Assembly: GCA_963843975.1 (NCBI GenBank)
Contig: CAWJMG010000001.1
Location: 270,001-302,000 of the forward strand
From: an uncultured Actinomycetes bacterium
GTDB taxonomy: Bacteria > Actinomycetota > Actinomycetes > S36-B12 > CAIYMF01
Length of the DNA: 32,000 nt
Direction of reading: 5' to 3'
Shown here: positions 6,978 to 32,000 of the stretch, in pieces
How the letters are laid out: every line of letters starts with the position of its first letter
Position numbering within the stretch: the stretch's first letter is position 1
The notes under the pieces: model-generated
Database searches by the model: none
Seen by the model: the letters and a program-made list of their open reading frames with translations, nothing else
What the model was told of the DNA's origin: nothing
Program-made: the position numbers and the translations under genes

Positions 6978-6987
6978 CGCGACGCCG

Positions 6988-10042: not shown

Positions 10043-10043
10043 G

Positions 10044-10603: not shown

Positions 10604-10894
10604 CTACGCGCAGTCGAGGCAGATGTCGACGCCGGGCTTGGCGCGACGGGTGCGGTGCTGCACGAGGAAGCACTTGTCGCAGCGGAACTCGTCCGCGAGC
10701 TGCGGCACCACGGCGACAGCGAGCACCTCGCCGGAGAGATCGGCGCCCGGGAGCTCGAGATCCTCGAGCAGGTTCGCCTCGTCCTCGACCAGCGTCTCGG
10801 TCGTCGGAGCCTGAGCGCGCAGTGCGTCAAGGCTCGCGGTCTGCTCTGCCGCCGTCGCCTCCGCGTCGCGCGGTGCGTCGTAGTCGGTAGCCAC
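10604..10894 (-). CDS. DUF4193 family protein
   Basis: MATDYDAPRD...LELPGADLSGEVLAVAVVPQLADEFRCDKCFLVQHRTRRAKPGVDICLDCA. This is the characteristic N-terminus, acidic middle and C-terminal CxxC...CxxC of actinobacterial DUF4193 proteins. Confidence 0.85.
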   Translation of the reverse strand: MATDYDAPRDAEATAAEQTASLDALRAQAPTTETLVEDEANLLEDLELPGADLSGEVLAVAVVPQLADEFRCDKCFLVQHRTRRAKPGVDICLDCA

Positions 10895-11051
10895 CGTTCC
10901 TCCTGCTCCCCCACACGTGCCGTCAACCCGGGTGCTCCGGAGGTGCCGAGGGTACGCCAGAGTTGGACCTCTCGCTCACGCGGGTCATGACCTGGACATG
11001 AACGCTCGGCGAAGCCGTCGGACGCGGGGCCTCCCCCTCTAGGGTCGGAGC

Positions 11052-12782: not shown

Positions 12783-12786
12783 CAGA

Positions 12787-12828
12787 ACGACGGCGGCCCC
12801 GGGGATCGCTCCCCGGGGCCGCCGTCGT
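12787..12828. terminator. Strong bidirectional intrinsic-terminator-like hairpin between convergent genes
   Basis: ACGACGGCGGCCCCGGGGA-TCGC-TCCCCGGGGCCGCCGTCGT: a 19-bp perfect GC-rich stem with a 4-nt loop. It sits in the 56-bp gap between the stops at 12782 (+) and 12839 (-). Confidence 0.8.
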
Positions 12829-12838
12829 CACTGCAGGG

Positions 12839-15598: not shown

Positions 15599-15810
15599 GT
15601 GGATGCTCCCCATTCCCGCACCGGCGAGAAGCCGCACTGGCGACGCTGCCGGTGACCCCTGACGTGGCGCAGCGGTGCTGCGCGGCTCACGCCCCATGAC
15701 GTTCCTAGGTGCGGGGCAGGGCGCCGTCAAGCGGATCCCCGGAAGATCAGGGCCGGGTCACCGAGAGTCCCGCGCGGCAGACCGACAGAGCCGACATACC
15801 GGACGCGATG

Positions 15811-17217: not shown

Positions 17218-18335
17218 CAGACGATGTTGTGCTCGAGGACGCGGACTCCGGCGGTGAACCGCTCGGCCGACAGGGAGGTCACGTCGACGACGGTCTCACG
17301 CCCGAGCCAGAGGTCGCGCACGACCTCGCCGACGGCTGGGCCCTGCAGGAACCCGTGGCCGGAGAAGCCGGCGGCGTACACGAACCGCGAGATCCCGTGT
17401 GCCTCACCGATCACGGCGTTGTGGTCGGGTGTCGTCTCGTACAGCCCAGCCCACCGGTGCGCCATGCCGACCTCGAGCAGAGCGGGTGCGCGTCGCTCCA
17501 TCACCTCGACCAGGTCCGGCAGCCATTCCTCGCTGTAGCTCTCGCGGAACCCCGGCGTCTCGGCCTGGTACGACATGCCGAGGAGCACGCCCGGGCCCTC
17601 GCGGTGGAGGTAGAAGGTGGACGCCGCGTCGATCGTCATCGGCATCTCGTCGTGGAAGATCCGCAGCAGGTCGTCCGAGATCGGCTCGGTCACGAGGATC
17701 TGGCGCCGCAGCGGCTCGATCGGCAGGTCGACGCCGACCCACTCCCCCACGGCCTTCGACCACGCGCCCGCCGCGCACACCACACCGCCGGCCGCGATCG
17801 TGCCCGCGCTGGTCGTCACGGCGGTGATCTCGCCGCCGCTCGTCTCGGTGCCCGTCACCTCGATGCCGGTGCGGATGGTGGCGCCGAGGTCGCGCGCGGC
17901 CTTGGCGTAGCCCTGCACGACCGACTCGGGGCTGCAGTAGCCGTCGCGCGGGTGGAACGTGGCGCCGATGACGTCGTCGGTGACGACGCCGGGGCTGAGG
18001 CGCGCGGCCTCGTCGGGCGTCAGCAGCTGCGTGGGCACGCCCATCGAGTTCTGCAGCGCCACTGCCTGCTCGGCCGCGGCCAGGCCGGACGTCTCGGTGT
18101 GCAGGAACAGGTAGCCGACCTGGCGCAGGTCGATCTCGGCACCGGGTCGTGCGCCGAACTGCTCGAACGCCGGCAGGCTGCGCGCACCGAGCGCGATGTT
18201 GACGGGGTCGGAGAACTGCGCGCGCACGCCGCCCGCGGACTTCGACGTCGATCCGCCCGCGAGGTCGCCCTTCTCGAGCAGCACGATGTCGGTGACACCG
18301 GCCTCGGCCAGATGAAACGCGGCGCTCGCGCCCAT
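17217..18335 (-). CDS. FAD-dependent oxidoreductase (DAO family; sarcosine / pipecolate / amine oxidase-like), true 5' end unresolved
   Basis: The 372-aa ORF starts MGASAAFHLAEAGVTDIVLLEKG. The in-frame sequence just upstream reads ...AQVVIVGGGV, which completes a Rossmann VVIVGGGVMGASAAF motif. No ATG, GTG or TTG lies between that segment and the in-frame TGA at 18387-18389. An ATG at 18390 (an ATGA overlap with the ALDH stop) is in the neighbouring frame. See findings. Confidence 0.8.
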   Translation of the reverse strand: MGASAAFHLAEAGVTDIVLLEKGDLAGGSTSKSAGGVRAQFSDPVNIALGARSLPAFEQFGARPGAEIDLRQVGYLFLHTETSGLAAAEQAVALQNSMGVPTQLLTPDEAARLSPGVVTDDVIGATFHPRDGYCSPESVVQGYAKAARDLGATIRTGIEVTGTETSGGEITAVTTSAGTIAAGGVVCAAGAWSKAVGEWVGVDLPIEPLRRQILVTEPISDDLLRIFHDEMPMTIDAASTFYLHREGPGVLLGMSYQAETPGFRESYSEEWLPDLVEVMERRAPALLEVGMAHRWAGLYETTPDHNAVIGEAHGISRFVYAAGFSGHGFLQGPAVGEVVRDLWLGRETVVDVTSLSAERFTAGVRVLEHNIV

Positions 18336-18386
18336 GACGCCGCCGCCGACGATGACGACCTGCGCGCTCGCAGGGAAGCTCGCGGC

Positions 18387-19898
18387 TCATCCGAAGTTCA
18401 CACCCTGGGCGAGCGGGAGCGACGTCGAGTAGTTGATGGTGTTGGTCGCGCGGCGCATGTAGCCGCGCCACGAGTCCGAGCCGCTCTCGCGTCCGCCGCC
18501 GGTGGTCTTCTCGCCGCCGAAGGCGCCGCCGATCTCGGCGCCCGAGGTGCCGATGTTGACGTTGACGATGCCGCAGTCCGAGCCCGCGGCCGACATGAAG
18601 AGCTCGGCCTCGCGCTGGTTGAGCGTGAAGATGCTCGACGACAGGCCCTGCGGCACGCCGTTGTGCAGCGCGATCGCCTCGTCGAGGTCGTCGTAGGTCA
18701 TCACGTAGAGCAGCGGCGCGAAGGTCTCCTCCCGGACGACGTCGGTCTGCGCCGGCATCCGCACGACCGCCGGACGCACGTAGAACGAGTCGGTGCCGGC
18801 GACGTCGACGCGGTCGCCGCCGGCGACGAGCGTGCCGCCGTCGGCCACCGCGCGGGCGATCGACTCCTGCATGCGGTCGTACGCCTTCTGGTTGATGAGC
18901 GGGCCGACGAGCGTGCCCTCCTCGAGCGGGCTGCCAACGGCGAGGCCCGAGAACGCGCCGGCGATGCGCTCGACGAGCGCGTCGACCACCGACGAGTGTG
19001 CGATCACACGGCGCATCGAGGTGCAGCGTTGGCCCGCCGTACCGGCCGCGGCGAACACGATGCCGCGCAGGGCGAGGTCGAGGTCGGCGCTGGGCGTGAC
19101 GATCGCGGCGTTGTTGCCGCCGAGCTCGAGGATCGTGCGGCCGAAGCGGGCTGCGACGCGCGGCGCGATCTCGGCGCCCATGCGCTCAGACCCCGTGGCG
19201 CTGACGACAGCGATGCGCGGATCGTCGATGAGGGCGGCGGAGTCGTCGCGCTCGGCGAGGACGAGCTGGTGCACGTCGGCGGGGGCGCCGACGTCGGCGA
19301 TGGCCTGGTCGAGCAGCGCGCTGCAGGCGAGGGCGGAGAGGGGAGCCATCTCGGACGGCTTCCAGATCACGCTGTCGCCGCAGACGAGTGCGAGCGCGGT
19401 GTTCCACGACCACACGGCGACGGGGAAGTTGAACGCCGAGATCACGGTGACGGGGCCGGCGGGGTGCCAAGTCTCCATGAGGCGGTGACCCGGGCGCTCG
19501 GACGGCATCGTGCGCCCCTCGAGCTGGCGGGAGAGGCCGAGGGCGAACTCGCAGACGTCGATCATCTCCTGCACCTCGCCGAGGGCCTCGGAGCGGATCT
19601 TGCCCACCTCGAGCTGCACGAGGTCGGCGAGGTCCTCCTTGTGCTCCTCGAGCAGGCGCCCGAGGCGGCGGATCAGGCCGCCGCGCACGGGCGCAGGCAC
19701 CGTGCGCCACTCCAGGAACGCCTCCTGGGCGCGTCCGATCGCGGCCTCGACGTCGGCCGCGCTCGCGGCGGCCAGCGGGATCAGGGTGCCGCCGTCGATG
19801 GGAGAACGGCTGAGCAGCGTGTCGCCGGTGGGCACGGTGGCACCGCAGGCGGTCAGCGCGGCGTGGGCACGGGCGACGAGGTCGTCGTGAAGGGTCAT
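18387..19898 (-). CDS. ALDH7-type aldehyde dehydrogenase (piperideine-6-carboxylate / alpha-aminoadipic semialdehyde dehydrogenase-like)
   Basis: The ATG at 19898 (MTLHDDL...) has GGAGAA 7 nt upstream. 503 aa. Motifs: ELGGNNA and GQRCTS (catalytic Cys). The C-terminus GAFGGEKTTGGGRESGSDSWRGYMRRATNTINYSTSLPLAQGVNF closely resembles the antiquitin/ALDH7 tail. The track ORF extending to 21650 is a spurious upstream extension. Confidence 0.88.
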   Translation of the reverse strand: MTLHDDLVARAHAALTACGATVPTGDTLLSRSPIDGGTLIPLAAASAADVEAAIGRAQEAFLEWRTVPAPVRGGLIRRLGRLLEEHKEDLADLVQLEVGKIRSEALGEVQEMIDVCEFALGLSRQLEGRTMPSERPGHRLMETWHPAGPVTVISAFNFPVAVWSWNTALALVCGDSVIWKPSEMAPLSALACSALLDQAIADVGAPADVHQLVLAERDDSAALIDDPRIAVVSATGSERMGAEIAPRVAARFGRTILELGGNNAAIVTPSADLDLALRGIVFAAAGTAGQRCTSMRRVIAHSSVVDALVERIAGAFSGLAVGSPLEEGTLVGPLINQKAYDRMQESIARAVADGGTLVAGGDRVDVAGTDSFYVRPAVVRMPAQTDVVREETFAPLLYVMTYDDLDEAIALHNGVPQGLSSSIFTLNQREAELFMSAAGSDCGIVNVNIGTSGAEIGGAFGGEKTTGGGRESGSDSWRGYMRRATNTINYSTSLPLAQGVNFG

Positions 19899-19926
19899 GG
19901 GCGGATTCTCCGGCATCGGAGGCTCT

Positions 19927-19945
19927 AGGAACAGCGACGGTTCCT
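19927..19945. promoter_or_regulatory. Interrupted dyad AGGAAC-N7-GTTCCT in the lysR-ALDH gap (candidate LysR-type operator or weak hairpin)
   Basis: The dyad is seen directly in the sequence, in the 68-bp relatively A/T-rich gap between the LysR stop (19967) and the ALDH start (19898). LysR regulators typically bind interrupted dyads with about 7-nt spacers. The function is inferred. Confidence 0.3.
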
Positions 19946-19966
19946 GGCCATGATGCTTGAGGATCT

Positions 19967-20893
19967 CTATTGCTTCGTGCTGCGCCGAGGCTTCTGCAGG
20001 CTCGCGACCACCTCGCCGGCCAGGTCGGCCACCGCTCGCGTGGCCCGGCCGGCGAGGGCGCCCTCCGGGGCGACGATCACGACGTCGCGGTAGACCTCCT
20101 CCTCCACCGGCCGGTGCGAGAGCTCGGGGGTCGTGGCGAGGCGCTGCATGAGGTCGGTCGCGAGCGTGAGGCCGAGGCCCTGCGAGGCGAGCTGCAGCGA
20201 GGCGGCCGAGTCGTTGACCTCGTGCACCACCCGCGGCTCGACGCCGGCGCGACGGAACGCGATGCGCAGGGCACGGCCCATCACGGTCGCGGGGTCCGGG
20301 AGGATCCAGTCGGCCTCGGCCAGGTCGGCGAGCGAGACCGGCGTACGGCGGGTCCGCCCCGGCGCGGACGCGACCCAGAAGCGCTCGCGCAGCACCGCGC
20401 TCACCGTGGTGTCCCGCTCGCGGCGCAGCGGGTCGTCGGGGTAGTCGAGGCCGAACGCGAGATCGACCTCGCCGAGGCGTACGGCGCGGGCGGCGACGTC
20501 GACATCCACCTCGCGGCTCGTGATGCGCAGCTGCGGGTAGCGCGTGGCCGCATGCGCGAGCAGCGGCGACAGGAAGGCCGCGGCCGAGCTGCCCCAGATG
20601 CCGAGCAGGACCTCGCCGCTGGGCTCGTCGTCGAGCTCCGTGACGCTGCGCCTCACCTGCTCCTCGGCGTCGAGCAGCGGCCCGGCCTGCTCGGCCAGGA
20701 GGCGTCCGGCGTCGGTGAGCACGAGGCGGCGACCCGACTTCACGAGGATCTCGACGCCGAGCTCCTTCTCGAGCAGCGCGATGTGCTGGCTCGCCGCACC
20801 CGGCGTGTAGCCGAGCGCCTCGGCCGCAGCGCCGAGCGTGCCCCGGCGTACGAACTCCCGCAGCGTCGCAAGGTGCACGAGGTTGAGGCTCAC
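19967..20893 (-). CDS. LysR-family transcriptional regulator
   Basis: GTG at 20893 (V103 of ORF 19967..21199): SLNLVHLATLREFVRRGTLGAAAEALGYTPGAASQHIALLEKELGVEILVKSGRRLVLTDAG is a classic LysR HTH. About 200 aa of substrate-binding domain follow. Confidence 0.9.
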   Translation of the reverse strand: MSLNLVHLATLREFVRRGTLGAAAEALGYTPGAASQHIALLEKELGVEILVKSGRRLVLTDAGRLLAEQAGPLLDAEEQVRRSVTELDDEPSGEVLLGIWGSSAAAFLSPLLAHAATRYPQLRITSREVDVDVAARAVRLGEVDLAFGLDYPDDPLRRERDTTVSAVLRERFWVASAPGRTRRTPVSLADLAEADWILPDPATVMGRALRIAFRRAGVEPRVVHEVNDSAASLQLASQGLGLTLATDLMQRLATTPELSHRPVEEEVYRDVVIVAPEGALAGRATRAVADLAGEVVASLQKPRRSTKQ

Positions 20894-20960
20894 GACGGGA
20901 ACCGTACGCCGCCGTGCTTGTCGGGCCGCGGATCGCGCATCGCGGTGGGAGCATGTCGCC

Positions 20961-21930
20961 GTGACGGACCTCCTCGAGCTCGCGCACATGCTCCCCCGGC
21001 CGTTGGCACTCGTCTTCGGCGGCGGCGGATCGCGAGGTGCCGTCCAGCTCGGCATGGTCCGTGCGATGGCCGAGACCGACCTCGTGCCCGACATGGTGCT
21101 GGGCACCAGCGTGGGCTCGCTCAACGGCGCGCTGATGGCTGCCGACCCCGCGCGGGCGCACGAGATGCTCGAGGACATCTGGCCGCGCATCGACCGCAAA
21201 CCAGGTCTTCCCCGGCGGCTTCATCCGCCAGACGTTCGCGGCCACGACGTCGGGCCGGCCCTTTGTCTTCGACACCGCGCCGCTCGCCCAGCTGCTGCTC
21301 GAGTACCTGCCCGTGACTCGTATCGAGGATCTCGCGCTGCCGTTCGTGGCGATGGCGACCGACCTCGACTCTGGCGCGCGCGTCGAGATGGACTCGGGCG
21401 ACCTCATCACGGCGCTCCTGGCATCGACCGCGATCCCGGTCGCGTTCCCCTGGGTCGGGCGAGACGGCCTCCGCCTCGTCGACGGCGGCCTGGTGACCAA
21501 CATCCCCGTGCGCCAGGCGGTCGCACGCGGCGCGAAGTCGGTGATGGTGCTCGACTGCGGCGTCTTCGGCGCCGAGGGCAAGTGGTCGGAGGGGATCATG
21601 GGCGTCGCCGTGCAGGCGTTCGCGATCGCCGGACGCCAGCAGATCACCAACGACCTCGAGATCGCGGCCGACGTACCGCTGCTCTACTTCCCCGTGCCCG
21701 ACACGATCCCGACGACGATCTTCGACTTCGAGAGCACCCCGGCACTGGCGGACCAGTCGTACGAGCTCGGCAAGGTCGCGCTCGACGGCTTGCACAGGTA
21801 CGGGCCTGCTGAGGGGTTGCTCGAGCCGGGTCTCTACGGGCGGCCGCCGCTCGCGATCATGAACCCCGAGATCCATGCCCTGCGCGTCCAGCTGCCGGGT
21901 GTGCCGCCCGAGGGCACCGACGCCGGCTGA
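20961..21930 (+). pseudogene. Patatin-like phospholipase, split by a +1 frame change
   Basis: The N-terminal part is in the frame of ORF 20838..21812: LALVFGGGGSRGAVQLG (oxyanion GGGxRG), GTSVGS (GxSxG), ...EDIWPRIDRK. The C-terminal part is in the frame of ORF 21313..21930, which stays open upstream to about 21202: QVFPGGFIRQTF...FVFDTAPLAQLL...ATDLDSG...LLASTAIPVAFPWV...LVDGGLVTNIPV (catalytic DGG). The switch is at about 21198-21202. Start is GTG 20961 or ATG 20988. Confidence 0.8.
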
Positions 21931-23196: not shown

Positions 23197-23217
23197 GCGC
23201 GGCCCGGCGGACGAGGA

Positions 23218-23261
23218 TCACCACCCTGCTCACATCATGTGGTGATGTGGGGTCACCACCC
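23218..23261. repeat. TCACCACCC direct repeat pair with a central inverted copy (candidate operator)
   Basis: TCACCACCC at 23218-23226 and 23253-23261. GTGGTGA(T) at 23239-23246 is the inverted copy. This also forms CACATCA-TGTGG-TGATGTG (a 7-bp stem). The element lies 60-105 bp upstream of the ATG at 23323. Confidence 0.4.
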
Positions 23262-23322
23262 GGATTCCTAACGTCGTCGATGTCGCCGGACGCCCGTCCG
23301 GCCGCGACGACAGGAGCCCGAC

Positions 23323-24000
23323 ATGACGATCACCAGCACCGGCCTCACCCGGGCGGCGGGCATCTGCGCCGCGACCGCCGGGGCCATCTTCATCGCCGTC
23401 CAGATCAACCACCCGGCAATGGACGTCGCCTCGGTCGAGACCACCGACTGGCTGGTCCGCAACACGGCCAAGGCGGTCATGGCCGGGCTCGCGCTGGTCG
23501 GCATCGCCGGCCTCTACCTGCGCCAGGTGCGCAAGGTCGGCATCCTCGGCCTGATCGGGGCGGCGGTGTTCAGCCTCGGCTACTTGCTGATGTTCGGCGT
23601 CGAGGTGGTCGCGACCGCGGTGCTGCCCTCGCTGACGCAGAGCAACCCGGCGTACGTGAGCGACGTCGTCGCCGCGGCCTTCGGCGGCACGCCGGTCGGC
23701 GACATCGGCGGCATGGCGATCGTGCTCAACCTCGCCGGGATCAGCTACATGCTCGGCGGGGTGCTGTTCGGCATCGCGCTGTTCCGCGCTCGCGTCGTCA
23801 CCCGCTGGGGATCGCTCCTGCTTGCCGTCGCCACGCTCGCGACCGCCTCGCTCGCCGTGCTGCCCGAGGAGTTCAACCGCCCGATGGCCGTTCCGACCGG
23901 TCTTGCGCTCATCTGGCTCGGTACGTCGCTGTTCCGCAACCCGGGCCACGACGCCACGCCGGTCACGTCGATCAGCGCCGCCGAGCGCGTCTCCGTCTGA
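23323..24000 (+). CDS. Integral membrane protein (about 6 TM helices), function unknown
   Basis: 225-aa ORF with regular hydrophobic helices. CAGGAG RBS 6-7 nt upstream. The stop overlaps the next start (TGATG). Confidence 0.75.
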   Translation: MTITSTGLTRAAGICAATAGAIFIAVQINHPAMDVASVETTDWLVRNTAKAVMAGLALVGIAGLYLRQVRKVGILGLIGAAVFSLGYLLMFGVEVVATAVLPSLTQSNPAYVSDVVAAAFGGTPVGDIGGMAIVLNLAGISYMLGGVLFGIALFRARVVTRWGSLLLAVATLATASLAVLPEEFNRPMAVPTGLALIWLGTSLFRNPGHDATPVTSISAAERVSV

Positions 24001-24695
24001 TGACCACCGTGCAGAACGCGGGTCGGCCGGGGCTGGTGCCCCGGTCGTCCCGCACGTGGGCAGTCGTCCTGCCGATCGTCCTGCTCAGCCTCATCCCGGT
24101 CGCCGCGGGCGTGCTGCGGCTCGTCCAGGTGGCGGGCGGTCCGGCGATCATCCCGGCCGACCACCGCTACGCCGACTTCCCGGCTCCGCTGATCGTGCAC
24201 ATCGTGTCGTCGATCGTGTTCCTGCTCGTGGGCGCGTTCCAGCTCGCACCCCGCTTCCGTCGCGGGCACCTGCGCTGGCACCGTCGCGCCGGCCGCGTGC
24301 TCGGCGTCGCGGGGATGCTCGTCGCGTTCTCCGCGATCTGGATGACGCTGTTCTACGAGCGCCACCCGGGCACGACCGACCTGATCTACGTGCTGCGCCT
24401 CGCGTTCGGCAGCTTCCTCGCCGCCGCGCTCGTCATCGGCATCCGCGCGGCGCGGAACGGCGACCTCGTCACCCACCGCGCGTGGATGATCCGGGCGTAC
24501 GTCGTCGCGCTCGCTGCCGGGTCGCAGGCCGTCACCGAGGGCGTGTTCGGCGCGATCTTCGGCACGGCCGGCATCCGCGGCGACCTCGCGAAGGCGTCGT
24601 CGTGGGTCATCGGGATCGCGGTGGCCGAGTGGATCATCCGCCGCCCGGCCCGTCAGGCTCGTCTCGCAGTGCGGCTCTCGGTCGTGTCGTCATGA
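24000..24695 (+). CDS. DUF2306-like membrane protein
   Basis: The ATG at 24000 is in the frame of ORF 23247..24695: MTTVQNAGRPGLVPRSSRTWAVVLPIVLLSLIPVAAG... It has HIVSSIVFLLVGAFQLAPRFRR..LRWHRRAGRV, resembling the DUF2306 Q-F...HR..GR motif. About 6 TM helices. Confidence 0.72.
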   Translation: MTTVQNAGRPGLVPRSSRTWAVVLPIVLLSLIPVAAGVLRLVQVAGGPAIIPADHRYADFPAPLIVHIVSSIVFLLVGAFQLAPRFRRGHLRWHRRAGRVLGVAGMLVAFSAIWMTLFYERHPGTTDLIYVLRLAFGSFLAAALVIGIRAARNGDLVTHRAWMIRAYVVALAAGSQAVTEGVFGAIFGTAGIRGDLAKASSWVIGIAVAEWIIRRPARQARLAVRLSVVSS

Positions 24696-24904
24696 CCGAC
24701 GGTCGCGTCTACACGCTGCGGGTCGGCGGCCACCTCGACGACCGGTGGGCGAGCTGGTTCGACGGCCTCGTGATCGCCGACGCCGAGGACGGCACGAGCA
24801 GCCTCACGGGCCGTGTCGAGGATCAGGCGCAGCTGCACGGGATCCTCGCGCGGCTGCGCGACCTCGGCGTCCCGCTGATCAGCTGCCAGGCGCTCGATGC
24901 CTGA
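24692..24904 (+). CDS. Small hypothetical protein (70 aa)
   Basis: The ATG at 24692 overlaps the previous stop (ATGA). MTDGRVYTLRVGGHLDDRWASWFDGLVIADAEDGTSSLTGRVEDQAQLHGILARLRDLGVPLISCQALDA. The DQA.LHG.L..LRDLG.PL.S ending recurs in many small actinobacterial proteins of unknown function. Confidence 0.6.
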   Translation: MTDGRVYTLRVGGHLDDRWASWFDGLVIADAEDGTSSLTGRVEDQAQLHGILARLRDLGVPLISCQALDA

Positions 24905-24916
24905 CCCGTACGACGT

Positions 24917-27640
24917 CTACCCGCCGATCAGGCCGAGCTCGCTTCCCCTGCGTACGGCGGCACGACGACTCGTCACGCCGAGCTTGGTGTAGATGCTCTT
25001 GGTGTGGGTGCGGACGGTGTTGAGCGACAGGAACAGGTGCCGCGCGATCTCCGGCCCGTCGAGGTCGGAGGCGAGCAGCCGCAGCACCTCGAGCTCGCGC
25101 GGGCTGAGCGGGTCGATCAGCTGCGCCGTGTCGTTCGTGATCGCGGTCTCTGGTGCGCTGCTGGGAACGGCGCGCAGGAGAGTCGCGGCGTACGGCGACG
25201 AGCCAGGGATCGCTGCGAGCGCGGTGAGCAGCGGCACGATCGCGCTGCCGTGTCGGGTGAACGGGCGGACGACCGACTCGGGCTCGGCAAGCGCGACCGC
25301 CCTTGCGATGGCTTCTGAGGCGGCCCTGTCGTCGGGCGCCGCCAGGGCCTGCAGCACCTCGACGTCGATGACCGTGGCGTCGCGGCCCCCTGCGGTCGCG
25401 ACGTCGAGCAGGCGCTGCAGAAGATCGCGGGAGTCCGTGAGGGCCTGTGCGTCGCCACTGGTGCGATCCCGTGCGAGGAGCACCTCGGCGAAGGTGACGT
25501 GCTCGTACTCGCGGAGGTACGCCACGTCGTCCTGCGCCGTCAGCCCGCGGTCGCGTGCCCAGCGCTCGGCTGCGTCGAGGTCGCCGAGGCGCAGGTGCAG
25601 CCGGGCGGCGGCTGCGTGCAGCGGGCGCACGTTCGGCGAGAAGTCGCCGAGGTAGACCTGCTCCGCCTCGGTCACGAGGTCGAGAGCGCCGACCAGGTCG
25701 CCCTCGGCCTCGGCGAGGAGGGCGGCGACCGCCCGCGAGCGTCCGGCGTAGCGGGGCAGAGCGAGCTCCTCGCCGAACGACCTCGCGGTGTCGAGGTGCG
25801 TGCGCGCGGTGACGAGGTCGCCGCGCTCGAGCGCGAGCTCGGCGAGGCCCACGTGGATGTCGGCGATGCCGCGAGCCGGTGAGCCCGTGGAGTCGCCGGC
25901 GAGCGCGAGCGCGTCGGCCAGCACTCTGCCCGCGTCGCGCCGGCGGCCTTGCGCTGCACGGATCTCGGCGAGGGTGAGATAGCAGCCGATCGCGTCCGAG
26001 AGGTGCTGCGCGCGGCGGAGGCCGGCGACGCAGACGTCGTAGCGCGCGTAGGCGTCGTCGAGCTCCCCGACCGCCCAGTGCGCGAGGCCTGAGAGGCCGG
26101 AGGCACCCGACCGAACGACGTCATCGCTCTCCGGCGCGGCCTCGATCGCGAGGGCGGCGTGGCGGTGGGTGCCGGCGAGGTCGCCAGACACGAGCGCCAG
26201 GCCTGCGCGGTAGAGCTCGATCGCCCCAGGGATGCGCGCGATCTCGGTCTCGTCGATCGCCGTGAGGCCGGTGCCGCTGTCAGGTCCGTCCGCGATCCGA
26301 CGCTCGATCGCAGGCAGCTGCGCGGCGAGCGCGTCGAGCCTCGGGCCGACCGCGGCAAACTCGTTGCACGACATGAGCGCGCCGACGAACGTCACGGCCA
26401 GCACCGGGCGATGGCGAAGGACATCGTCGGGGAAGTCGTCGGACCATCGGCGCAGCACGGCCTCGTGGCGCTGCCGCCTCAGATCGGGCGTGGCCGTCTC
26501 GACGACGTCGGCCGCGAGCTCGAGCTCGCCCGCCGCGACCGCGTGCCGCACCGCGCCCACGGGCTCACGCGCATCGGCGTACCAGCGGCTCGCGCGCGCG
26601 TGCAGTGCATTGACCTCGGCGACGGTGTTCGTCGAGCGCAGGTGCGCGCGGAGGACGTCGGCGAACAGGTGGTGGTAGCGGTACCACCGCCGCTCGTCGT
26701 CGAGCGGTATGACGAAGAGATTCGCACGGTCGAGAGAGTCGAGAACGGTTGCGCTGCCTGAGGTCTCCAGCACGGCGTCGCAGAGGTCGCCGCAGAGCCG
26801 GTCGAGCATCGACGTGCGCACGAGGAAGTCGCGGACGTCGCCGCTCTGGCGCGAGAGCACCTCGTCGACGAGGTAGTCGACGACGAAGCGGTCGGTGCCG
26901 GCGAACCCAGCCACGAACCCGCCGACGTCGTCGCGCCCCTGCATCGACAGCGCCGCGAGCTGCAGGGCCGCCGCCCAGCCCTCGGTACGAGCCTCGAGCG
27001 CAGCGACGTCGTCCGGGCCCAGGGTGAGTCCGTGCACGTCGGTGAGGTACGCCGCGGCCTCGTCGGCCGTGAAGCGCAGGTCGCGCGCGCGGAGCTCGAG
27101 CAGCTCGCCCCGGGCGCGGAGCCTCGACAGCGGCAGCTGCGGATCCGCGCGCGTGCCGACGACGACGTGCAGGTTGGGCGGCCGGTGGTCGAGCACGTAG
27201 GTCATGCCCTCGGCCACCTCCGCCCCGTCGGCGAGGTGGTAGTCGTCGAGCACGAGCGTGATGCGCGTGGGCGCCTCGGCGAGGTCGTTGAGCACCGAGG
27301 TGAGGAGCGCGGGTGTCGCAGGCTGACCCGCTTCGAGCAACGGGAGCACGCCGGCGCCGACTCCCGGCACGGCCGTGCCGAGAGCGGCGACGACGTACTG
27401 CCAGAACATCGAGGGTTGGCTGTCGCCCTCGTCGAGCGACACCCACGCGACGGCCCGGTCAGTGGTTCCTGCGAGCCAGGTGCTGAGGATGGTCGTCTTG
27501 CCGAACCCGGGAGCGGCCGAGACGAGAGTGAGCGCAATGCGCTCATCGGCGTCGAGACGGGCCGTCAGCCGGTCGCGAGGGACCAGCGCGGGACGCGGCG
27601 CCGGGATGTGGAGCTTGGTCGAGACGAGCGTGCCCGCCAT
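24917..27640 (-). CDS. Large ATP-binding LuxR-family regulator (LAL / MalT-like: AAA ATPase + TPR-like repeats + LuxR HTH)
   Basis: 907-aa ORF. N-terminus STKLHIPAPRPALVPRDRL. Walker A SAAPGFGKTT and Walker B LVLDDYH. A long helical-repeat middle. C-terminal LSPRELEVLRLLASDLDGPEIARHLFLSLNTVRTHTKSIYTKLGV. GGGGGAGG RBS. Confidence 0.92.
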   Translation of the reverse strand: MAGTLVSTKLHIPAPRPALVPRDRLTARLDADERIALTLVSAAPGFGKTTILSTWLAGTTDRAVAWVSLDEGDSQPSMFWQYVVAALGTAVPGVGAGVLPLLEAGQPATPALLTSVLNDLAEAPTRITLVLDDYHLADGAEVAEGMTYVLDHRPPNLHVVVGTRADPQLPLSRLRARGELLELRARDLRFTADEAAAYLTDVHGLTLGPDDVAALEARTEGWAAALQLAALSMQGRDDVGGFVAGFAGTDRFVVDYLVDEVLSRQSGDVRDFLVRTSMLDRLCGDLCDAVLETSGSATVLDSLDRANLFVIPLDDERRWYRYHHLFADVLRAHLRSTNTVAEVNALHARASRWYADAREPVGAVRHAVAAGELELAADVVETATPDLRRQRHEAVLRRWSDDFPDDVLRHRPVLAVTFVGALMSCNEFAAVGPRLDALAAQLPAIERRIADGPDSGTGLTAIDETEIARIPGAIELYRAGLALVSGDLAGTHRHAALAIEAAPESDDVVRSGASGLSGLAHWAVGELDDAYARYDVCVAGLRRAQHLSDAIGCYLTLAEIRAAQGRRRDAGRVLADALALAGDSTGSPARGIADIHVGLAELALERGDLVTARTHLDTARSFGEELALPRYAGRSRAVAALLAEAEGDLVGALDLVTEAEQVYLGDFSPNVRPLHAAAARLHLRLGDLDAAERWARDRGLTAQDDVAYLREYEHVTFAEVLLARDRTSGDAQALTDSRDLLQRLLDVATAGGRDATVIDVEVLQALAAPDDRAASEAIARAVALAEPESVVRPFTRHGSAIVPLLTALAAIPGSSPYAATLLRAVPSSAPETAITNDTAQLIDPLSPRELEVLRLLASDLDGPEIARHLFLSLNTVRTHTKSIYTKLGVTSRRAAVRRGSELGLIGG

Positions 27641-27664
27641 CGCCTCCCCCTCGCACCCGCGACC

Positions 27665-27739
27665 CCCGTCAGCGACGACCCTAGTGGCACATGCCCGTCA
27701 GCTTCTCGAGCCAAGCTTTGCCGGGCCCAGCGCTGACGG
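27665..27739. repeat. Three copies of CCGTCAGC (two direct, one inverted) in the LuxR / CHAT-gene intergenic region
   Basis: CCCGTCAGC at 27665-27673 and 27694-27702. The inverted copy GCTGACGG is at 27732-27739. Coordinates were read by eye and may be off by 1. Confidence 0.4.
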
Positions 27740-27918
27740 TGTCGCTTGCGGACCAGAGCGCCGTGACTTGGATCCCGCGCTGGGCAGTGCATGCTTGGTT
27801 AGCCGGTCGGTTCGATCTTGTGCAGTGAGTGTGAACTTGCGTGCCGATTGTGCCCCGCGGGCTGAACGGCAAGCGAAGATGGGGTTGACGACGAACAGCG
27901 CCAAGTACAGGGGGGCAC

Positions 27919-30366
27919 GTGACCGACAAGATCACGCGCGATGCAGTGCTCGAGCTTCGTCAGAAGTGGTTCAACGACCTCGTGGCCCTCACGTGTGACG
28001 GCACGCGGCTATCTGAATCGACGGAACGAACTCCGTTGATGGCGACGGCGCTGGCGAGTCTCACCATCCTCGGAGGGCACCTGCTCGGCGCACAGGACGA
28101 TGCACTCGTACTTCCTAACGTCAGTGTGGAGGATGTTGGGAAGGAGATCGGGCGGTGGCGAACGGGCAGGGGGCGCCCGCGGTTGGCCCGCCATTGGGAG
28201 GAAGGTTGGCTAAGCCTGTTCCGCTACGCCCGGGACGAGAGCTTGTTGACGTCTGACCTTCTCGCCGCCTTCGCGTCTAGTCCGTGCGGCGAAGCTGCAG
28301 GTGGCCGCACCCAGCATGACTTGCGCGGAGCTTCCGATGCCACGCTCCTTCGTGAGTTCATCGAGCGCATCCTGGCCGCGAACACTGGGCGCGCTTGGGA
28401 TCAACCCATGCACAACGGTCTCGACCTTCAGCCCAATCACCTCAGTGTGGTCGCAGCTGGTGTGGACCTTGATCTGGCACTGGCGCTCAAGCTGTTCACG
28501 CCGATAGAGATCCTGGCAACACTGCCAGATGAGGACGAAGACCTGTTGGCGGACTCATGGATGATGTCGTCGCGCGGTTACCTGCGCGTCTATCTCACAG
28601 CGGTTGGCGAATGGCCGGGTTCGGCACCTGGCGGCGTGCCGGAACACGTGGCGGACTGGGTATTGAAGCGAGACGGCCGCCAGGGCAACTGCACAACCGG
28701 CTTCGTACCCGGTTGGTTTGCCACCGCTGAATCGGAGGCAGATCTAGATGCCATCCGTAGGCTTGCGTTCGCCGGCGGAGTGGCACTGGAACTGAGTCCT
28801 TCGCGAGCGGCGATCTCTCTCCTGACGCCGGATGCCGATGGGCAGCCCACGAACCTTGCCCCCACGTATTTCGTCCAACGCACGACCGAACAACTCCAAG
28901 ATCTTGCCGTCTTGGTCGCCATGGGCTGCGTCACGCTGCACCGCTTCTACATCGACGCCAATCGCCAACTGAGCTACGACGGGAGCCACTTGATCCGGCT
29001 CCCGGAAGGCGCGCTACATGAACTAAGGGATTGGATCGGTCCCACGTTTCAGGGTTGGACCATGGACTCGTTCATGAGCGACCTTCCTGACTCCAACGAA
29101 GAAGCGCGACTCCGGGCCGTAACAGGAGAGCGCAGACGGTTTGAACTTGCGCGCCTCGTGAGGGCGAGACTCGACGGGCAACTACGCCCAGAACTGTCCT
29201 CGGCGCTGGGCGACTACCTCTCCGCCCTTAGGCGAGCCGGAGCAACCGGAGGCCTCGGCGGCGCATCTCGGCCCGAGACGGCAGAACTCGAGACAACCAG
29301 GGGCACCCTTCGGTCGCTGGTGAATGGCTCACGGTCTATAGGGGTTGACCAACTCGATGTCGACGTCTTGGGCGCCGAGCGTGCCTACCTGCAGTTCGAA
29401 GCTACGCAATCTGGCATCCAGTGGGTGAGTGCAAGCTGGAAGCATGGGAACACCACGGTTCATCGCGTCTTCGAATACCGCTCGGCCGGCCGGCCCCGAC
29501 CCTGGAGGCTCTCGGACCAGTCCGCGTGGCTCGCAGAATCACTGGGGGACCTCCAATCTCTTGCCCTAGAGGGCATCCGGCACGTGGTGCTAAGCCCTTC
29601 TTCCGAAGACTACGGGGCCCCGTACCACCAAGCCCTGCTCAGCTTGGGGTTTGAGACGGCAAGCTACGCACCAAGTCTCGATCTCCTGCGTCCGGTGGAC
29701 CGCCCACTCAAGAGTGGTCAACCGTCTCGCAACTACCTCGCCGGCTGGCCGTCTGAAGGTGACACCTTCTTGCCAGGAGTTGCAGCCGAACTGGAGGCCC
29801 TTGAGGACGACCTCGGCTGTCGCGTCGAGACTGACCTGCGCTCGCTGAGCGGCCCCTTCCGCACGATCCACCTCACCGGACACGCTCGCGCTGGATCGCA
29901 TGAAGCATCAACGGCGATCGATCTTGGGCCTGCCGGGCGTCTAACTGCGGTCGACCTCTTGGAGCGGGCGGACCTGGCCGGATCGGGCATCGCGTTGCTC
30001 TGTGCATGCTCGACGGGCGAGGGCGTCTATTGGCCCATGCAACTACAGGACAACACGCCCCTCGACGTCTGCTTCCTTGCCGTTGGCGTGCAAACCGTAG
30101 TGAGCACTTGCCGGCCTGTAGGCGATGTAAGCGCGCTGTTGTTTGCTCTGGAGTTCCATCACGAGGTGCTATCGGGCGTCAACCCATGGTCTGCCTACAG
30201 CAGGGCGCGTCACGTACTGCGAGCGCCCTACGCCTCCTCAGTAGCACCAGCGATCGCTAAGCGCCTAGATGGCTTGCTGCCGGATTGGAGGGAGCGATCC
30301 CTTCAGTCAGACGAGGACGACTGGCTCGCGTTCCGCATTGCTGGTCGTCACTGGGCTGAGCGTTAG
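27919..30366 (+). CDS. CHAT-domain (caspase-like cysteine protease) protein with a large uncharacterised N-terminal region
   Basis: 815-aa ORF. The GTG start has GGGGGG 3-4 nt upstream. Residues ~485-770 follow the CHAT pattern: IRHVVLSPSSEDYGAPYHQALL, then TIHLTGHARAGS..STAIDLGPAGRLTAVDLL (His655, nt 29881-29883), then GIALLCACSTGEG (Cys697, nt 30007-30009), then FLAVGVQTVVSTCRPVGDVSALLFALEFHHEVL. Residues 1-480 match nothing I recognise. G+C is lower and codons are atypical. Confidence 0.85.
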   Translation: MTDKITRDAVLELRQKWFNDLVALTCDGTRLSESTERTPLMATALASLTILGGHLLGAQDDALVLPNVSVEDVGKEIGRWRTGRGRPRLARHWEEGWLSLFRYARDESLLTSDLLAAFASSPCGEAAGGRTQHDLRGASDATLLREFIERILAANTGRAWDQPMHNGLDLQPNHLSVVAAGVDLDLALALKLFTPIEILATLPDEDEDLLADSWMMSSRGYLRVYLTAVGEWPGSAPGGVPEHVADWVLKRDGRQGNCTTGFVPGWFATAESEADLDAIRRLAFAGGVALELSPSRAAISLLTPDADGQPTNLAPTYFVQRTTEQLQDLAVLVAMGCVTLHRFYIDANRQLSYDGSHLIRLPEGALHELRDWIGPTFQGWTMDSFMSDLPDSNEEARLRAVTGERRRFELARLVRARLDGQLRPELSSALGDYLSALRRAGATGGLGGASRPETAELETTRGTLRSLVNGSRSIGVDQLDVDVLGAERAYLQFEATQSGIQWVSASWKHGNTTVHRVFEYRSAGRPRPWRLSDQSAWLAESLGDLQSLALEGIRHVVLSPSSEDYGAPYHQALLSLGFETASYAPSLDLLRPVDRPLKSGQPSRNYLAGWPSEGDTFLPGVAAELEALEDDLGCRVETDLRSLSGPFRTIHLTGHARAGSHEASTAIDLGPAGRLTAVDLLERADLAGSGIALLCACSTGEGVYWPMQLQDNTPLDVCFLAVGVQTVVSTCRPVGDVSALLFALEFHHEVLSGVNPWSAYSRARHVLRAPYASSVAPAIAKRLDGLLPDWRERSLQSDEDDWLAFRIAGRHWAER

Positions 30367-30899
30367 GCTGCCTCAGGTTGGGGCAGGGACCGAAGGACGA
30401 TGACCCCGGACCTTCCACGGCAATGGTGCCCTCCAGGCCCGGACAATCGACGTCTCCGCAAGCCGTGGTCAGGCATTCTCCCAACTGCCGTCGGCGTGAT
30501 CTCCCTGGCGGCCAGGAACGGCGATGGCCAACCGATCACCCCTCCAGCGGAGTTTCAGTCCAGGTCCGGGACCACGGGCAACGGACGAACGAACCACTAC
30601 CGCCCGCGTCATCGCGCCACCAATGCCGAATGAGCCTCGGGTAGCGCAGAGCACGAGCGTAGGGCGGCTTCGCCGCGGGGGCTCGAGGCGACGCGGCGGT
30701 CCTCCCGGTGCAAGTGGGACCTCCACACACCGCGGCAGAATGAATGGCTCGGCAGGAATCTGCGGTGCCATTCCCGGAACAGGTGATCGGGTGTGTGGAG
30801 GTGCCGCGACGAGGCCGTCAGCGGCGTCGCTTTGCGCCGAGGGATCCGACCCCGAGGAAGACTCCTCCCGAATTCGAGGGACCTCGCCGACCGCGGTCA

Positions 30900-32000
30900 C
30901 GTCCCACCGCGTGGTGTAACTCGAGCCGGTCGTGATCGGCTTCGCGGTGGTGCTTGTCTGACTATGACGCCATGAGTTCGGGGACCGCCACCTCCTTGGT
31001 CGAGTCGAGGGTGGCGGCGCCGATCTGGGCCATCGAGTTCTCGGACAGGTAGCGGCGGTCGGAGACCTGCCATTCGTCGTGGGTCTCGATCAGGACCGCG
31101 CCGGCCAGGCGCAGCAGCGCCTTCGGGTTCGGGAAGACACCGACGACGTCGGTGCGGCGTTTGATCTCCTTGTTCACCCGCTCCAACGGGTTGGTCGACC
31201 AGATCTTCTTCCAGTGCGCGGGCGGGAAGTCCGCGAACGCGGTCACGTCGTCAGCGGCCTCGCGGAGCATCGCCTCGACCTTGGGGAACTGGCGGCCGAG
31301 CATGGTGGCGATGACGTCGAGCTGGTCGCGGACGTGCTCGGCGTCGGGTTGGGCGAAGATCGTGCGGACCGCGGCTGCGACCATCTCCTGCGACGCCTTG
31401 GGGACCTGGGCCAGGACGTTGCGCAGGAAGTGGACCCGGCACCGCTGCCAGGACGACCCGATCATCACCGCGGCGATAGCCGCCTTGAGGCCGGTGTGGG
31501 CGTCGGAGATGACCAGCTTCACCCCGTGCAGGCCGCGGGCCTTCAGCGAGCGCAGGAACGCGGTCCAGAACGCTCCCTCTTCGCTGTCGCCGACGGCGAA
31601 GCCCAGGACTTCCCTTCTCCCGTCAGCACTCACCCCGGTGGCGACCACGACGGCTTGGGACGCGACCCGCGACCCCTTGCCGCCCTTCCCACCACCGATG
31701 CGGGCCTTGCAGTAGGTCGCGTCGAGGAACACGTAGGGGAACTCGTCCTCGGACAGGTCCCGGTCAGCGAACGCTGCGACCTCGGTGTCGAGGTCCGCGC
31801 AGATCCTCGACACCTCGGACTTGGAGATCCCGGTGTCCGCACCGAGTGCCTTGACCAGGTCGTCGACCTTGCGCACGCTCGTGCCGGTGACGTAGGCCTC
31901 CATCACGACCGCGAACAGCGCCTGATCGATCCGGCGGCGCCGCTCGAGCAGCGACGGGAAGAACGACCCGGCCCGCAGCTTCGGGAGCGCCAGCTCGACG
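30900..32000 (-). mobile_element. IS256-family insertion sequence (partial; left boundary approximate, other end outside the window)
   Basis: Inferred from the transposase gene. IS256-type elements usually end within ~100 bp of the transposase stop. The terminal inverted repeat cannot be identified without the other end. Confidence 0.55.
30962..32000 (-). CDS. IS256-family (Transposase_mut) transposase, partial (N-terminus beyond the window end)
   Basis: ORF 30962..31906 plus an in-frame extension to the window edge (...LPKLRAGSFFPSLLERRRRIDQALFAVVMEAYVTGTSVRKVDDL). Family motifs: FLDATYCKAR, VISDAHTGLKAAI, WQRCRVHFLRNVL, STNPLERVNKEIKRRTDVVGVFPN. Confidence 0.92.
   Translation of the reverse strand, partial: VELALPKLRAGSFFPSLLERRRRIDQALFAVVMEAYVTGTSVRKVDDLVKALGADTGISKSEVSRICADLDTEVAAFADRDLSEDEFPYVFLDATYCKARIGGGKGGKGSRVASQAVVVATGVSADGRREVLGFAVGDSEEGAFWTAFLRSLKARGLHGVKLVISDAHTGLKAAIAAVMIGSSWQRCRVHFLRNVLAQVPKASQEMVAAAVRTIFAQPDAEHVRDQLDVIATMLGRQFPKVEAMLREAADDVTAFADFPPAHWKKIWSTNPLERVNKEIKRRTDVVGVFPNPKALLRLAGAVLIETHDEWQVSDRRYLSENSMAQIGAATLDSTKEVAVPELMAS

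What the first reader, a model, noticed from the sequence alone, without database searches (positions are those of the whole stretch)
27650..30961. Compositional island (lower G+C, atypical codons) wedged between a native regulator gene and an IS256 element
My hand counts of single 60-nt lines give 60%, 65% and 60% G+C (lines 27961, 28021 and 28981) inside the CHAT gene. A line in the adjacent LuxR gene (26041) gives 77%. These are spot counts, not a full computation.

Codons that are scarce in flanking genes (TTG, CTA, TCT, AGT, GAA, GAT, CTT) are frequent here. The shift starts within a few tens of bp of the LuxR start codon (27640) and persists to the transposase stop (30962). This pattern fits horizontally acquired DNA, possibly delivered or rearranged by the IS.
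Basis: partly seen in the sequence, partly recalled or inferred. Interest (0 to 1): 0.65.

Follow-up and report, generated by a model that had tools for sequence, protein, structure and literature searches.

The report
Foreign gene island beside the tmRNA gene
The low-G+C stretch is real horizontally acquired DNA. It is only the far end of a roughly 13.5-kb, recombinase-less mosaic island downstream of the tmRNA (ssrA) gene, and the IS256 element is a later simple insertion, so this is an ordinary kind of island carrying one rare, uncharacterised CHAT protease gene.

Summary
Window 27650-30961 is 63.9% G+C against a 71.6% genome, placing it in the lowest 0.9% of 3-kb windows. The CHAT gene has GC3 0.69 against a genome mean of 0.90. 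It uses the seven listed rare codons at 134 per 1000 against 20 per 1000, the most extreme of 2258 long ORFs.

The right limit is wrong. Low G+C continues past the window to the tmRNA gene at window-equivalent 41160-41524.

The IS256-family element (30895-32331) has a perfect 8-bp target duplication. It sits inside a copy of the ssrA-downstream module and has no partner copy, so it did not deliver the island.

The island is a mosaic. Reading away from ssrA it holds a flank module, type I R-M genes plus an AlbA_2 gene, two more decayed flank modules with tmRNA 3'-end copies, and then the CHAT gene next to a native MalT/LuxR regulator. I found no integrase.

Relatives keep ssrA and the regulator but carry different cargo between them, and none of 30 has the CHAT gene. 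The only other genomic copy of this rare CHAT family lies between Gabija and Rosmer-type (RmrA) defence genes in a Nocardioides low-G+C island.

Earlier first-reader notes of this scan, made on overlapping windows of this same genome, had already flagged the ssrA-flank modules and the IS target duplication.

The parts
24917..27640 (-). Native left flank: a 907-aa MalT-like LuxR-family regulator (TPR_MalT plus GerE HTH).
   Evidence: Pfam TPR_MalT 3.3e-44 and GerE 4.6e-16. GC3 0.90. Orthologues at 85% in G007 and 66% in G010; in G010 the gene is syntenic with ssrA.
27695..27705 (.). Left junction of the foreign DNA. Homology to the closest relative G007 ends about 58 nt upstream of the LuxR start codon.
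   Evidence: BLAST homology runs from window 23215 to 27688 at 85%. The alignment diverges after 'CATGC' at about 27698.
27919..30366 (+). Solitary 815-aa CHAT (caspase-like) protease gene. It has a conserved but unrecognised N-terminal region of about 540 aa, and it is the compositionally most foreign gene of the island.
   Evidence: Pfam CHAT 1.5e-13 over residues 580-805. GC3 0.69, rank 0.1%. Rare-codon load 133.7 per 1000. About 36 full-length relatives among 1.84 billion representatives. H651 and C697 are invariant in 29 sequences. No PADLOC, NCBIfam or PHROG match.
30644..30788 (-). F3: a decayed copy of the ssrA-downstream flank module, of the type that directly follows ssrA in relative G007. 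Its hairpin has eroded.
   Evidence: 83% identity over 167 nt to the G007 ssrA 3' end plus flank. Alignments. Hairpin z-score -1.4 here against -8.6 for the G007 copy.
30789..30812 (-). c3: a direct-repeat copy of the tmRNA 3' end (…CGCGGCACCTCCA), an att-like scar.
   Evidence: Repeat D20. 18-nt match at 94%. 11/12 core match at L001 5797-5808.
30813..30894 (-). Left part of F2, a second copy of the ssrA-flank module that the IS interrupts. It includes the left target-site duplication CCGACCGC (30887-30894).
   Evidence: 30-nt block at 93% to the ssrA-proximal flank (D12). Target duplication read from the sequence.
30895..32000 (-). IS256-family insertion sequence, 1437 bp, cut by the window end. 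It runs to window-equivalent 32331 (G000:C1:300895-302331). The transposase is 440 aa and the right target duplication is at 32332-32339.

The rest of the island lies BEYOND THE WINDOW. Window-equivalent coordinates follow; add 270000 for G000:C1.
- 32340-32414 (-): right part of F2, with an intact hairpin.
- 32415-40967: cargo B. A 130-aa ORF (-) and a 268-aa ORF (+), the AlbA_2-like gene (33722-34996, -), hsdR (34993-38244, -), hsdS (38160-39278, -) and hsdM (39271-40881, -).
- 40968-40983: c2', a mimic of the tmRNA 3' end.
- 40984-41161 (-): F1, the live ssrA flank module.
- 41160-41524 (-): the tmRNA gene, which is the anchor and right boundary.
   Evidence: **IS:** Pfam Transposase_mut 4.3e-133. 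NCBIfam transpos_IS256 355.8 bits against a cut-off of 150. Inverted repeats (I3). 8-bp duplication. No identical second copy.

**Beyond the window:** G+C profile. Pfam and PADLOC for type I R-M and AlbA_2. Flank modules and the mimic. tmRNA by ARAGORN and by Rfam RF00023 at 135 bits.

Best explanation
The stretch 27.7-30.9 kb is the segment furthest from ssrA of a ~13.5-kb mosaic genomic island. The island fills the interval between the 3' end of the tmRNA gene (window-equivalent 41160) and a native MalT/LuxR regulator (start codon at 27640).

**The locus in this genus.** ssrA is followed by a conserved module of about 175 nt. The module holds a terminator-like hairpin and ends in a mimic of the tmRNA 3' end. 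Beyond it lies a hypervariable cargo region.

**This genome.** Reading away from ssrA, the order is:
1. ssrA
2. flank module F1, ending in the mimic c2'
3. cargo B: type I R-M hsdMSR, an AlbA_2 gene and two unknown ORFs
4. flank module F2, into which the IS256 element later inserted
5. the tmRNA 3'-end copy c3
6. flank module F3
7. the CHAT gene
8. LuxR

**What is shown.** The repeated flank modules and tmRNA 3'-end copies are present. The composition is foreign. Relatives lack the CHAT gene. The IS has a clean target duplication. No recombinase gene is present.

**What is inferred.**
- The repeats are att-type scars of successive acquisitions at the ssrA hotspot (accretion). Recombinase genes have since been lost, so the island is now fixed or only cis-mobilisable.
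- The CHAT segment came from a lower-G+C donor than cargo B (GC3 0.69 against 0.84-0.89).
- The exact route of the CHAT segment is unresolved. It could be site-specific integration at the mimic, or replacement by homologous recombination in the conserved flanks.
- Functionally the interval is a defence-type island. The CHAT gene most likely encodes a stand-alone caspase-like protease with an intact His651/Cys697 dyad, controlled by its large N-terminal region and acting in phage or mobile-element conflict.
For: **Extent and anchor**
- Low G+C and deviant tetranucleotides run continuously from 27.6k to 41.2k.
- The tmRNA gene sits at the right edge.

**Repeats**
- Direct repeats of the tmRNA 3' end and its downstream flank lie at 30644-30894 and 32340-32414.
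- The flank copies have equivalent hairpins: strong in F1 and F2, eroded in F3.

**Insertion sequence**
- The IS has an 8-bp target duplication and interrupts module F2.

**Relatives**
- G010 keeps ssrA and LuxR in synteny with a different 7.9-kb filler: an M10 peptidase, RibD_C and a sulfate permease.
- In G007, synteny stops at 27688 and is followed by a Schlafen-type helicase and a hydrolase.
- G004 has a canonical 7.25-kb insert bounded by a 22-nt exact repeat of the tmRNA 3' end. It carries an AEP-TOTE/PrimPol gene.
- The CHAT gene was not found in 30 relatives.

**Defence content**
- PADLOC recognises the type I R-M genes.
- The only other genomic copy of the CHAT family found (Nocardioides nanhaiensis, 33-35% identity) also lies in a 60-67% G+C island within 72-78% flanks. 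It sits between GajA/GajB and RmrA.

**Protease**
- H651 and C697 are invariant across 29 family members.
Against: - No tyrosine or serine recombinase gene, or fragment, was detected anywhere in C1:297-312 kb. None was found in the equivalent intervals of G004, G007 or G010 either. Site-specific integration therefore rests on the repeats alone.
- The order of the repeats does not fit one simple integration scheme. No clear att copy exists on the LuxR side of the CHAT segment, and the mimic expected at about 30618-30643 is barely recognisable (and my reading of it).
- The defence role of the CHAT protein rests on neighbourhood in only two genomes. There is no PADLOC, PHROG, NCBIfam, plasmid or phage match.
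- The structure model was unusable, with pLDDT 38.6.
Confidence: 0.8

Rival explanations
1. The IS256 element brought in or rearranged the low-G+C segment, acting as a composite or one-ended transposon.
For: An intact IS256-family element abuts the segment. IS256-type fragments also occur at the edge of another low-G+C island 29 kb away, at C1:331505-331595.
Against: A perfect 8-bp target duplication flanks a single IS, and deleting the IS restores a contiguous ssrA-flank module. No IS copy or IS end lies left of the CHAT gene. Low G+C continues for 9 kb on the other side of the IS. The IS has GC3 0.91 against 0.69 for CHAT.
Confidence: 0.03
2. The cargo, including the CHAT segment, arrived with no site-specific step. 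DNA taken up from another strain replaced the interval by homologous recombination in the conserved flanks (ssrA plus module on one side, LuxR on the other). The internal module copies came along with the donor DNA.
For: No recombinase gene is present here or in three relatives' intervals. The variable region is bounded on both sides by sequence conserved across the genus, and the left break is sharp at the edge of LuxR. The flank-module types F2 and F3 also occur in G007, in a different order.
Against: Relative G004 shows that true integration into the tmRNA 3' end, with an exact 22-nt repeat, does happen in this genus. Tandem module copies that separate cargo segments are what accretion at an att site produces. 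This was described for ssrA islands of Dehalococcoides (PMC3146451). The two routes are not exclusive.
Confidence: 0.3
3. The segment is native DNA whose unusual composition reflects the gene itself, for example low expression or protein composition, rather than transfer.
For: For hsdM and hsdR, part of the low G+C is indeed carried by codon positions 1 and 2, with near-native GC3 of 0.86-0.89.
Against: For CHAT the third codon position itself is deviant, at 0.69 and rank 0.1%. The gene was not found in 30 relatives. Different DNA occupies the same position in G007 and G010.
Confidence: 0.02

Closest known systems
ssrA (tmRNA gene)-linked genomic islands, especially the tandem ssrA-GIs of Dehalococcoides (PMC3146451)
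   Same: The DNA has low G+C and disrupts synteny immediately downstream of the single-copy ssrA gene. Several segments are separated by direct repeats of the ssrA 3' end. Some segments lack any integration module; that paper calls these 'cis-mobilizable' or fixed, arising by accretion.
   Different: No recombinase gene of either major family is present in the locus here. Dehalococcoides islands typically carry the serine recombinase DsiB. Here each repeat unit is a ~175-nt flank module with a hairpin and a tmRNA 3'-end mimic that is conserved genus-wide, not just a 20-bp repeat. The cargo is defence-type rather than reductive dehalogenase genes.
Defence islands and hotspots
   Same: The interval carries a type I R-M system with an AlbA_2/Schlafen-like fourth gene. 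Relatives carry a Schlafen-type helicase or an AEP-TOTE/PrimPol gene at the same hotspot.
   Different: In G010 the same interval holds ordinary-looking genes: a peptidase, RibD_C and a permease. The hotspot is therefore not exclusively defensive.
IS256-family insertion sequences
   Same: A Mutator-type DDE transposase matches NCBIfam transpos_IS256 above its cut-off. The element has imperfect terminal inverted repeats and an 8-bp target duplication.
   Different: This is a single copy of its variant. Other genomic copies are 87-89.6% identical. It does not form a composite transposon.
CHAT-domain caspase-like proteases in prokaryotic conflict systems (type III-E Craspase TPR-CHAT, PMC9729208; the CHAT anti-sigma factor DdvA, PMC11506125)
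   Same: The protein has a Pfam CHAT domain with a conserved His and Cys, and it sits in a defence-island neighbourhood.
   Different: It has no TPR, no CRISPR or gRAMP partner, no sigma-factor partner and no PADLOC match. The only solved-structure sequence match is weak and confined to the Cys motif (8rot_B, E 1.5e-4). The ~540-aa N-terminal region matches no family.

Membership tests
t(m)RNA-gene-linked genomic island (ssrA island) | Lies immediately downstream of the 3' end of the tmRNA gene | tested here: met
   The tmRNA gene is at L001 16160-16524 (-), which is window-equivalent 41160-41524. The low-G+C block ends there.
t(m)RNA-gene-linked genomic island (ssrA island) | Direct repeat of the tmRNA 3' end at the distal boundary or boundaries | tested here: met
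   Copies lie at window 30797-30808 (11/12 of the core) and at 40968-40979, with flank-module copies beside them. No clear copy lies at the LuxR-side end of the CHAT segment.
t(m)RNA-gene-linked genomic island (ssrA island) | Atypical composition, with presence or absence varying among relatives | tested here: met
   for composition. for relatives.
t(m)RNA-gene-linked genomic island (ssrA island) | Encodes its own integrase or recombinase | tested here: not met
   Six-frame searches with PF00589 and PF00239 gave no match in C1:297-312 kb. I therefore file it as a recombinase-less (decayed or cis-mobilisable) island, not as an autonomous integrative element.
IS256 family insertion sequence | IS256-type DDE transposase, terminal inverted repeats and an 8-9 bp target duplication | tested here: met
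   NF033543 scores 355.8 bits against a cut-off of 150. Inverted repeats at 5892-5929 and 7297-7334. CCGACCGC is duplicated.
Composite (IS-bracketed) transposon | Two IS copies or IS ends bracket the cargo | tested here: not met
   Genome-wide BLAST of the IS finds no copy or end between C1:295000 and 300894.
CHAT / caspase-like peptidase (Pfam PF12770) | Domain match above the gathering score, with conserved catalytic His and Cys | tested here: met
   51.3 bits against a cut-off of 24. H651 and C697 are invariant in 29 homologues. Assigning them as the catalytic dyad is an inference from the known CHAT/caspase fold.
Known CHAT-containing defence systems (type III-E Craspase, PADLOC-listed systems) | Match to a system model and presence of the partner genes | tested here: not met
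   No PADLOC family matches the protein or its Nocardioides homologue. The locus has no cas, gRAMP or sigma-factor partner.

The most novel reading that the evidence does not exclude
The ~800-aa protein family (conserved unknown N-terminal region plus CHAT protease, about 36 representatives in 1.84 billion) is a new single-gene anti-phage or abortive-infection system. It travels between high-G+C actinobacteria inside defence islands. Separately, the genus-wide ssrA-downstream module with its tmRNA 3'-end mimic may serve as a secondary attachment site that lets recombinase-less cargo accrete.
Probability: 0.3. Interest if true: 0.6.

Novelty: new member of a known kind. Interest (0 to 1): 0.33.

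Why it matters
As a compositional island this is textbook: foreign DNA parked at the tmRNA gene. The useful corrections are threefold. The island is four times larger than reported. The IS is a bystander. The 0.6-kb 'empty' stretch after the CHAT gene is a stack of decayed ssrA-flank scars.

Two things could merit follow-up:
- A rare, uncharacterised CHAT-protease family was seen in only two genomic contexts, both defence islands. It is a candidate new defence gene.
- A conserved ssrA-flank module with a tmRNA-end mimic marks where variable cargo begins throughout this genus.

Tried and rejected
**CHAT family searches**
- The word-indexed homologue search found only the query itself, both with the single protein and with the 29-sequence profile. 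The exhaustive HMMER search was needed to find the family.
- The search for related loci with the 29-sequence alignment failed because it had no conserved block. With four close sequences it found one genome locus and nothing in metagenome or viral contigs.
- A search of 400 genomes of the class gave one partial hit.
- tblastn against plasmid and phage collections gave no match.
- PHROGs, NCBIfam and PADLOC gave nothing for the CHAT protein, the AlbA_2 protein or the two small ORFs.

**Structure**
It returned pLDDT 38.6, so I ran no fold search.

**Regulatory signals and recombinases**
- The consensus promoter and terminator scan of 27500-31000 found nothing.
- I looked for an integrase remnant with six-frame searches for tyrosine and serine recombinases and found none.
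- I looked for an att-like tmRNA-end copy at the LuxR-side junction. Only a chance-level GCCGGG match is there, so I rejected it.

**Not available or abandoned**
- I tried to derive a unique order of integration events from the repeat arrangement. The repeats are too decayed and the order is ambiguous.
Full report

Yes. The 500-nt G+C profile is 0.70-0.77 over the first 27.5 kb of the window and falls to 0.62-0.67 from 27501 to 30500.

The window is G000:C1:270001-302000, in a 4.19-Mb genome of 71.6% G+C. Window 27650-30961 is 63.9% G+C, and only 0.9% of all 3-kb genome windows are as low. Its tetranucleotide deviation is in the top 0.6% of 4184 windows.

The 815-aa CHAT ORF (27919-30366) has GC3 0.69. 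The mean for 2258 long ORFs is 0.90, so this ranks at 0.1%. The genome-wide figure and the figure for the neighbouring LuxR gene are both 19.8, and no other long ORF scores as high.

**2. Where does the island really start and stop?**

Homology to the closest relative (G007, LuxR 85% identical) runs to about window 27698, which is 58 nt upstream of the LuxR start codon, and then stops.

The right edge is not at the transposase stop. Past the end of the window, G+C stays at 62-68% up to G000:C1:~311200, which is window-equivalent 41200. There it ends at a full-length tmRNA gene: ARAGORN gives tag ANSQRTDFALAA, and Rfam RF00023 scores 135 bits.

The foreign block is therefore about 13.5 kb, and the finding covers only its distal quarter.

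**3. Anatomy**

Reading from ssrA towards LuxR, in window-equivalent coordinates, the parts are as follows.

- **ssrA:** 41160-41524 (-).
- **F1:** a flank module of about 175 nt with a strong hairpin (z -4.6). It ends in a mimic of the tmRNA 3' end, GGGACGGATCCCGGCACCTCA, which I call c2'.
- **Cargo B:** hsdM, hsdS and hsdR, a 424-aa AlbA_2/Schlafen-like gene, and two unknown ORFs.
- **F2:** a second flank module with an equivalent but sequence-different hairpin (z -5.4). The IS splits it.
- **c3:** a copy of the tmRNA 3' end at 30789-30812.
- **F3:** a third, eroded flank module at 30644-30788. It is 83% identical to the module that directly follows ssrA in G007, and its hairpin has decayed (z -1.4).
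- **The CHAT gene**, followed by **LuxR**.

The 0.6-kb 'gene-less' stretch after the CHAT gene is therefore a pile of ssrA-flank scars, not an unexplained gap.

**4. The IS**

The element spans window 30895-32331 (1437 bp). It encodes a 440-aa transposase that matches NCBIfam transpos_IS256 above its cut-off. It has imperfect terminal inverted repeats.

It is flanked by a perfect 8-bp duplication, CCGACCGC. Removing the IS and one copy of the duplication restores module F2.

The genome holds no identical copy. The best other copies are 87-89.6% identical, and there is no IS end to the left of the CHAT gene. The transposase has native-like GC3 of 0.91.

This is a simple, later insertion into the island, not its vehicle.

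**5. Relatives**

The CHAT protein gave no significant match in 30 relatives. In 400 sampled genomes of the class it gave only one partial hit.

| Relative | What lies downstream of ssrA |
|---|---|
| G010 | ssrA and LuxR are on the same contig in the same order, separated by an unrelated 7.9-kb filler (M10 peptidase, RibD_C, sulfate permease) |
| G007 | After the break at 27698, the LuxR side continues with a Schlafen-type helicase and an alpha/beta hydrolase. The ssrA side shows tmRNA, flank module, mimic and a second flank module before the contig ends |
| G004 | Textbook case: a 7.25-kb insert between ssrA and an exact 22-nt repeat of its 3' end, followed by the native flank module. It carries an AEP-TOTE/PrimPol gene and an HTH gene |

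A tmRNA-end mimic lies about 170-180 nt downstream of ssrA in G007, G008, G010 and G015, and about 115 nt downstream in G003. The flank module is therefore an old, conserved feature of the locus, and variable cargo begins right after it.

This is a genus-wide hotspot.

**6. How did it get there?**

Tandem cargo segments separated by ssrA 3'-end repeats are what accretion at an ssrA attachment site produces. This was described for Dehalococcoides ssrA islands, including segments without an integration module (PMC3146451).

However, six-frame searches found no tyrosine or serine recombinase in this interval or in the equivalent intervals of G004, G007 and G010. The repeat order does not fit one simple scheme, and the LuxR-side end of the CHAT segment has no recognisable att copy.

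My conclusions on mechanism:
- The mosaic, ssrA-anchored, recombinase-less nature of the island is shown.
- That the repeats are scars of past site-specific events is an inference.
- Replacement by homologous recombination in the conserved flanks remains a live alternative or complement, at about 0.3.

Composition indicates at least two donors. CHAT has GC3 0.69 and hsdS 0.71. In contrast, hsdM, hsdR and the AlbA_2 gene have GC3 0.84-0.89 and owe their low G+C to codon positions 1 and 2.

**7. What does the CHAT gene do?**

The only recognisable domain is CHAT, at residues 580-805.

An exhaustive HMMER search of 1.84 billion representatives found about 36 full-length relatives. They are about 770-830 aa long and 25-39% identical, so the ~540-aa N-terminal region is conserved within a small, rare family. 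H651 and C697 are invariant in 29 members. I infer that they form an intact caspase-like catalytic dyad.

The gene stands alone. It has no partner ORF and no match in PADLOC, NCBIfam, PHROGs, plasmids or phages. The best solved-structure match is a weak hit to the Cys motif of chain 8rot_B, deposited as a 'CHAT domain-containing protein' (E 1.5e-4).

The only other genomic copy I could retrieve is in Nocardioides nanhaiensis, at 33-35% identity. It also sits in a 60-67% G+C island within 72-78% flanks. On one side are GajA (574 bits) and GajB (333 bits), and on the other is RmrA (343 bits).

With type I R-M next door here, the family lies in a defence island in both of the two contexts available. 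The most likely mechanism is inferred, not shown: a stand-alone, N-terminally regulated protease acting in phage or mobile-element conflict.

The AlphaFold2 model, built from two sequences only, was unusable at pLDDT 38.6.

**8. Verdict**

Horizontal origin is supported, and IS-mediated delivery is rejected. The thing itself is a recombinase-less mosaic island at the ssrA hotspot, which is a new member of a well-known kind. Interest is modest. It lies mostly in the orphan CHAT family and in the conserved ssrA-flank module.

Earlier first-reader notes of this scan on overlapping windows (e1-2553048, e1-2553049, e1-2552946) had flagged the flank modules, the IS target duplication and the gene-less stretch. 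I reached the first two before reading those notes, and I verified all three.

Noticed in passing
window 27562-27739: Four copies of CCGTCAGC lie within 180 bp around the LuxR start and the native/foreign junction: three direct and one inverted. There are 10 copies in the 20-kb locus against 2.2 expected, and 0 of 200 shuffles reached 10. The first upstream copy is not conserved in G007. It could be an operator or a junction feature.
   Followed up: partly
G000:C1:311705-313087 (window-equivalent 41705-43087, +): A DUF222 plus HNH endonuclease gene sits directly on the 5' side of ssrA. Only about 67% nucleotide identity is seen at the same place in G010, while the genes beyond it are 86% identical. 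This looks like a fast-evolving or selfish gene next to the hotspot.
   Followed up: no
G000:C1:326000-332000 (window-equivalent 56000-62000; L002 11000-17000): This is a second low-G+C island (61-64%) about 15 kb beyond ssrA. It holds NlpC/P60-like and M23 peptidase ORFs and several unknown ORFs. A 91-nt IS256-end fragment lies at its right edge (C1:331505-331595). No tRNA gene is nearby.
   Followed up: partly
window-equivalent 38160-39278 (hsdS): The specificity subunit has GC3 0.71, while the flanking hsdM and hsdR have 0.86 and 0.89. This suggests that the specificity gene was swapped in from a different donor than the rest of the R-M operon.
   Followed up: no
L020 (G004:C3:104001-124000), 5905-13355: This is a canonical 7.25-kb ssrA island in a relative. 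It is bounded by an exact 22-nt repeat of the tmRNA 3' end. It carries an AEP-TOTE/PrimPol gene and an HTH protein, but no detectable tyrosine or serine recombinase.
   Followed up: partly
L021 (Nocardioides nanhaiensis NZ_BAABIM010000002.1:572801-591194), 4000-13000: This low-G+C defence island holds GajB, GajA, the CHAT-family homologue, a 286-aa unknown ORF that may be the partner of RmrA, and RmrA.
   Followed up: partly
L004/L019 (G007), L007/L017 (G010), L009 (G015), L012 (G008), L014 (G003): A mimic of the tmRNA 3' end (…GACGGATCCCGCCACCTCCA) is conserved about 115-180 nt downstream of ssrA across the genus, after a hairpin. Variable DNA starts immediately beyond it. It may be an ancient att scar or a secondary attachment site.
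   Followed up: partly
window 4990-21930 (note e1-2552954 of another reader): Another reader reports several genes that each need the same +1 frame correction at short homopolymer runs. Together with the 92.9% completeness of a 3-contig assembly, this suggests systematic long-read indel errors. Single-nucleotide frame breaks in this genome, for example in the 268-aa ORF of cargo B, should not be read as pseudogenes without checking.
   Followed up: no
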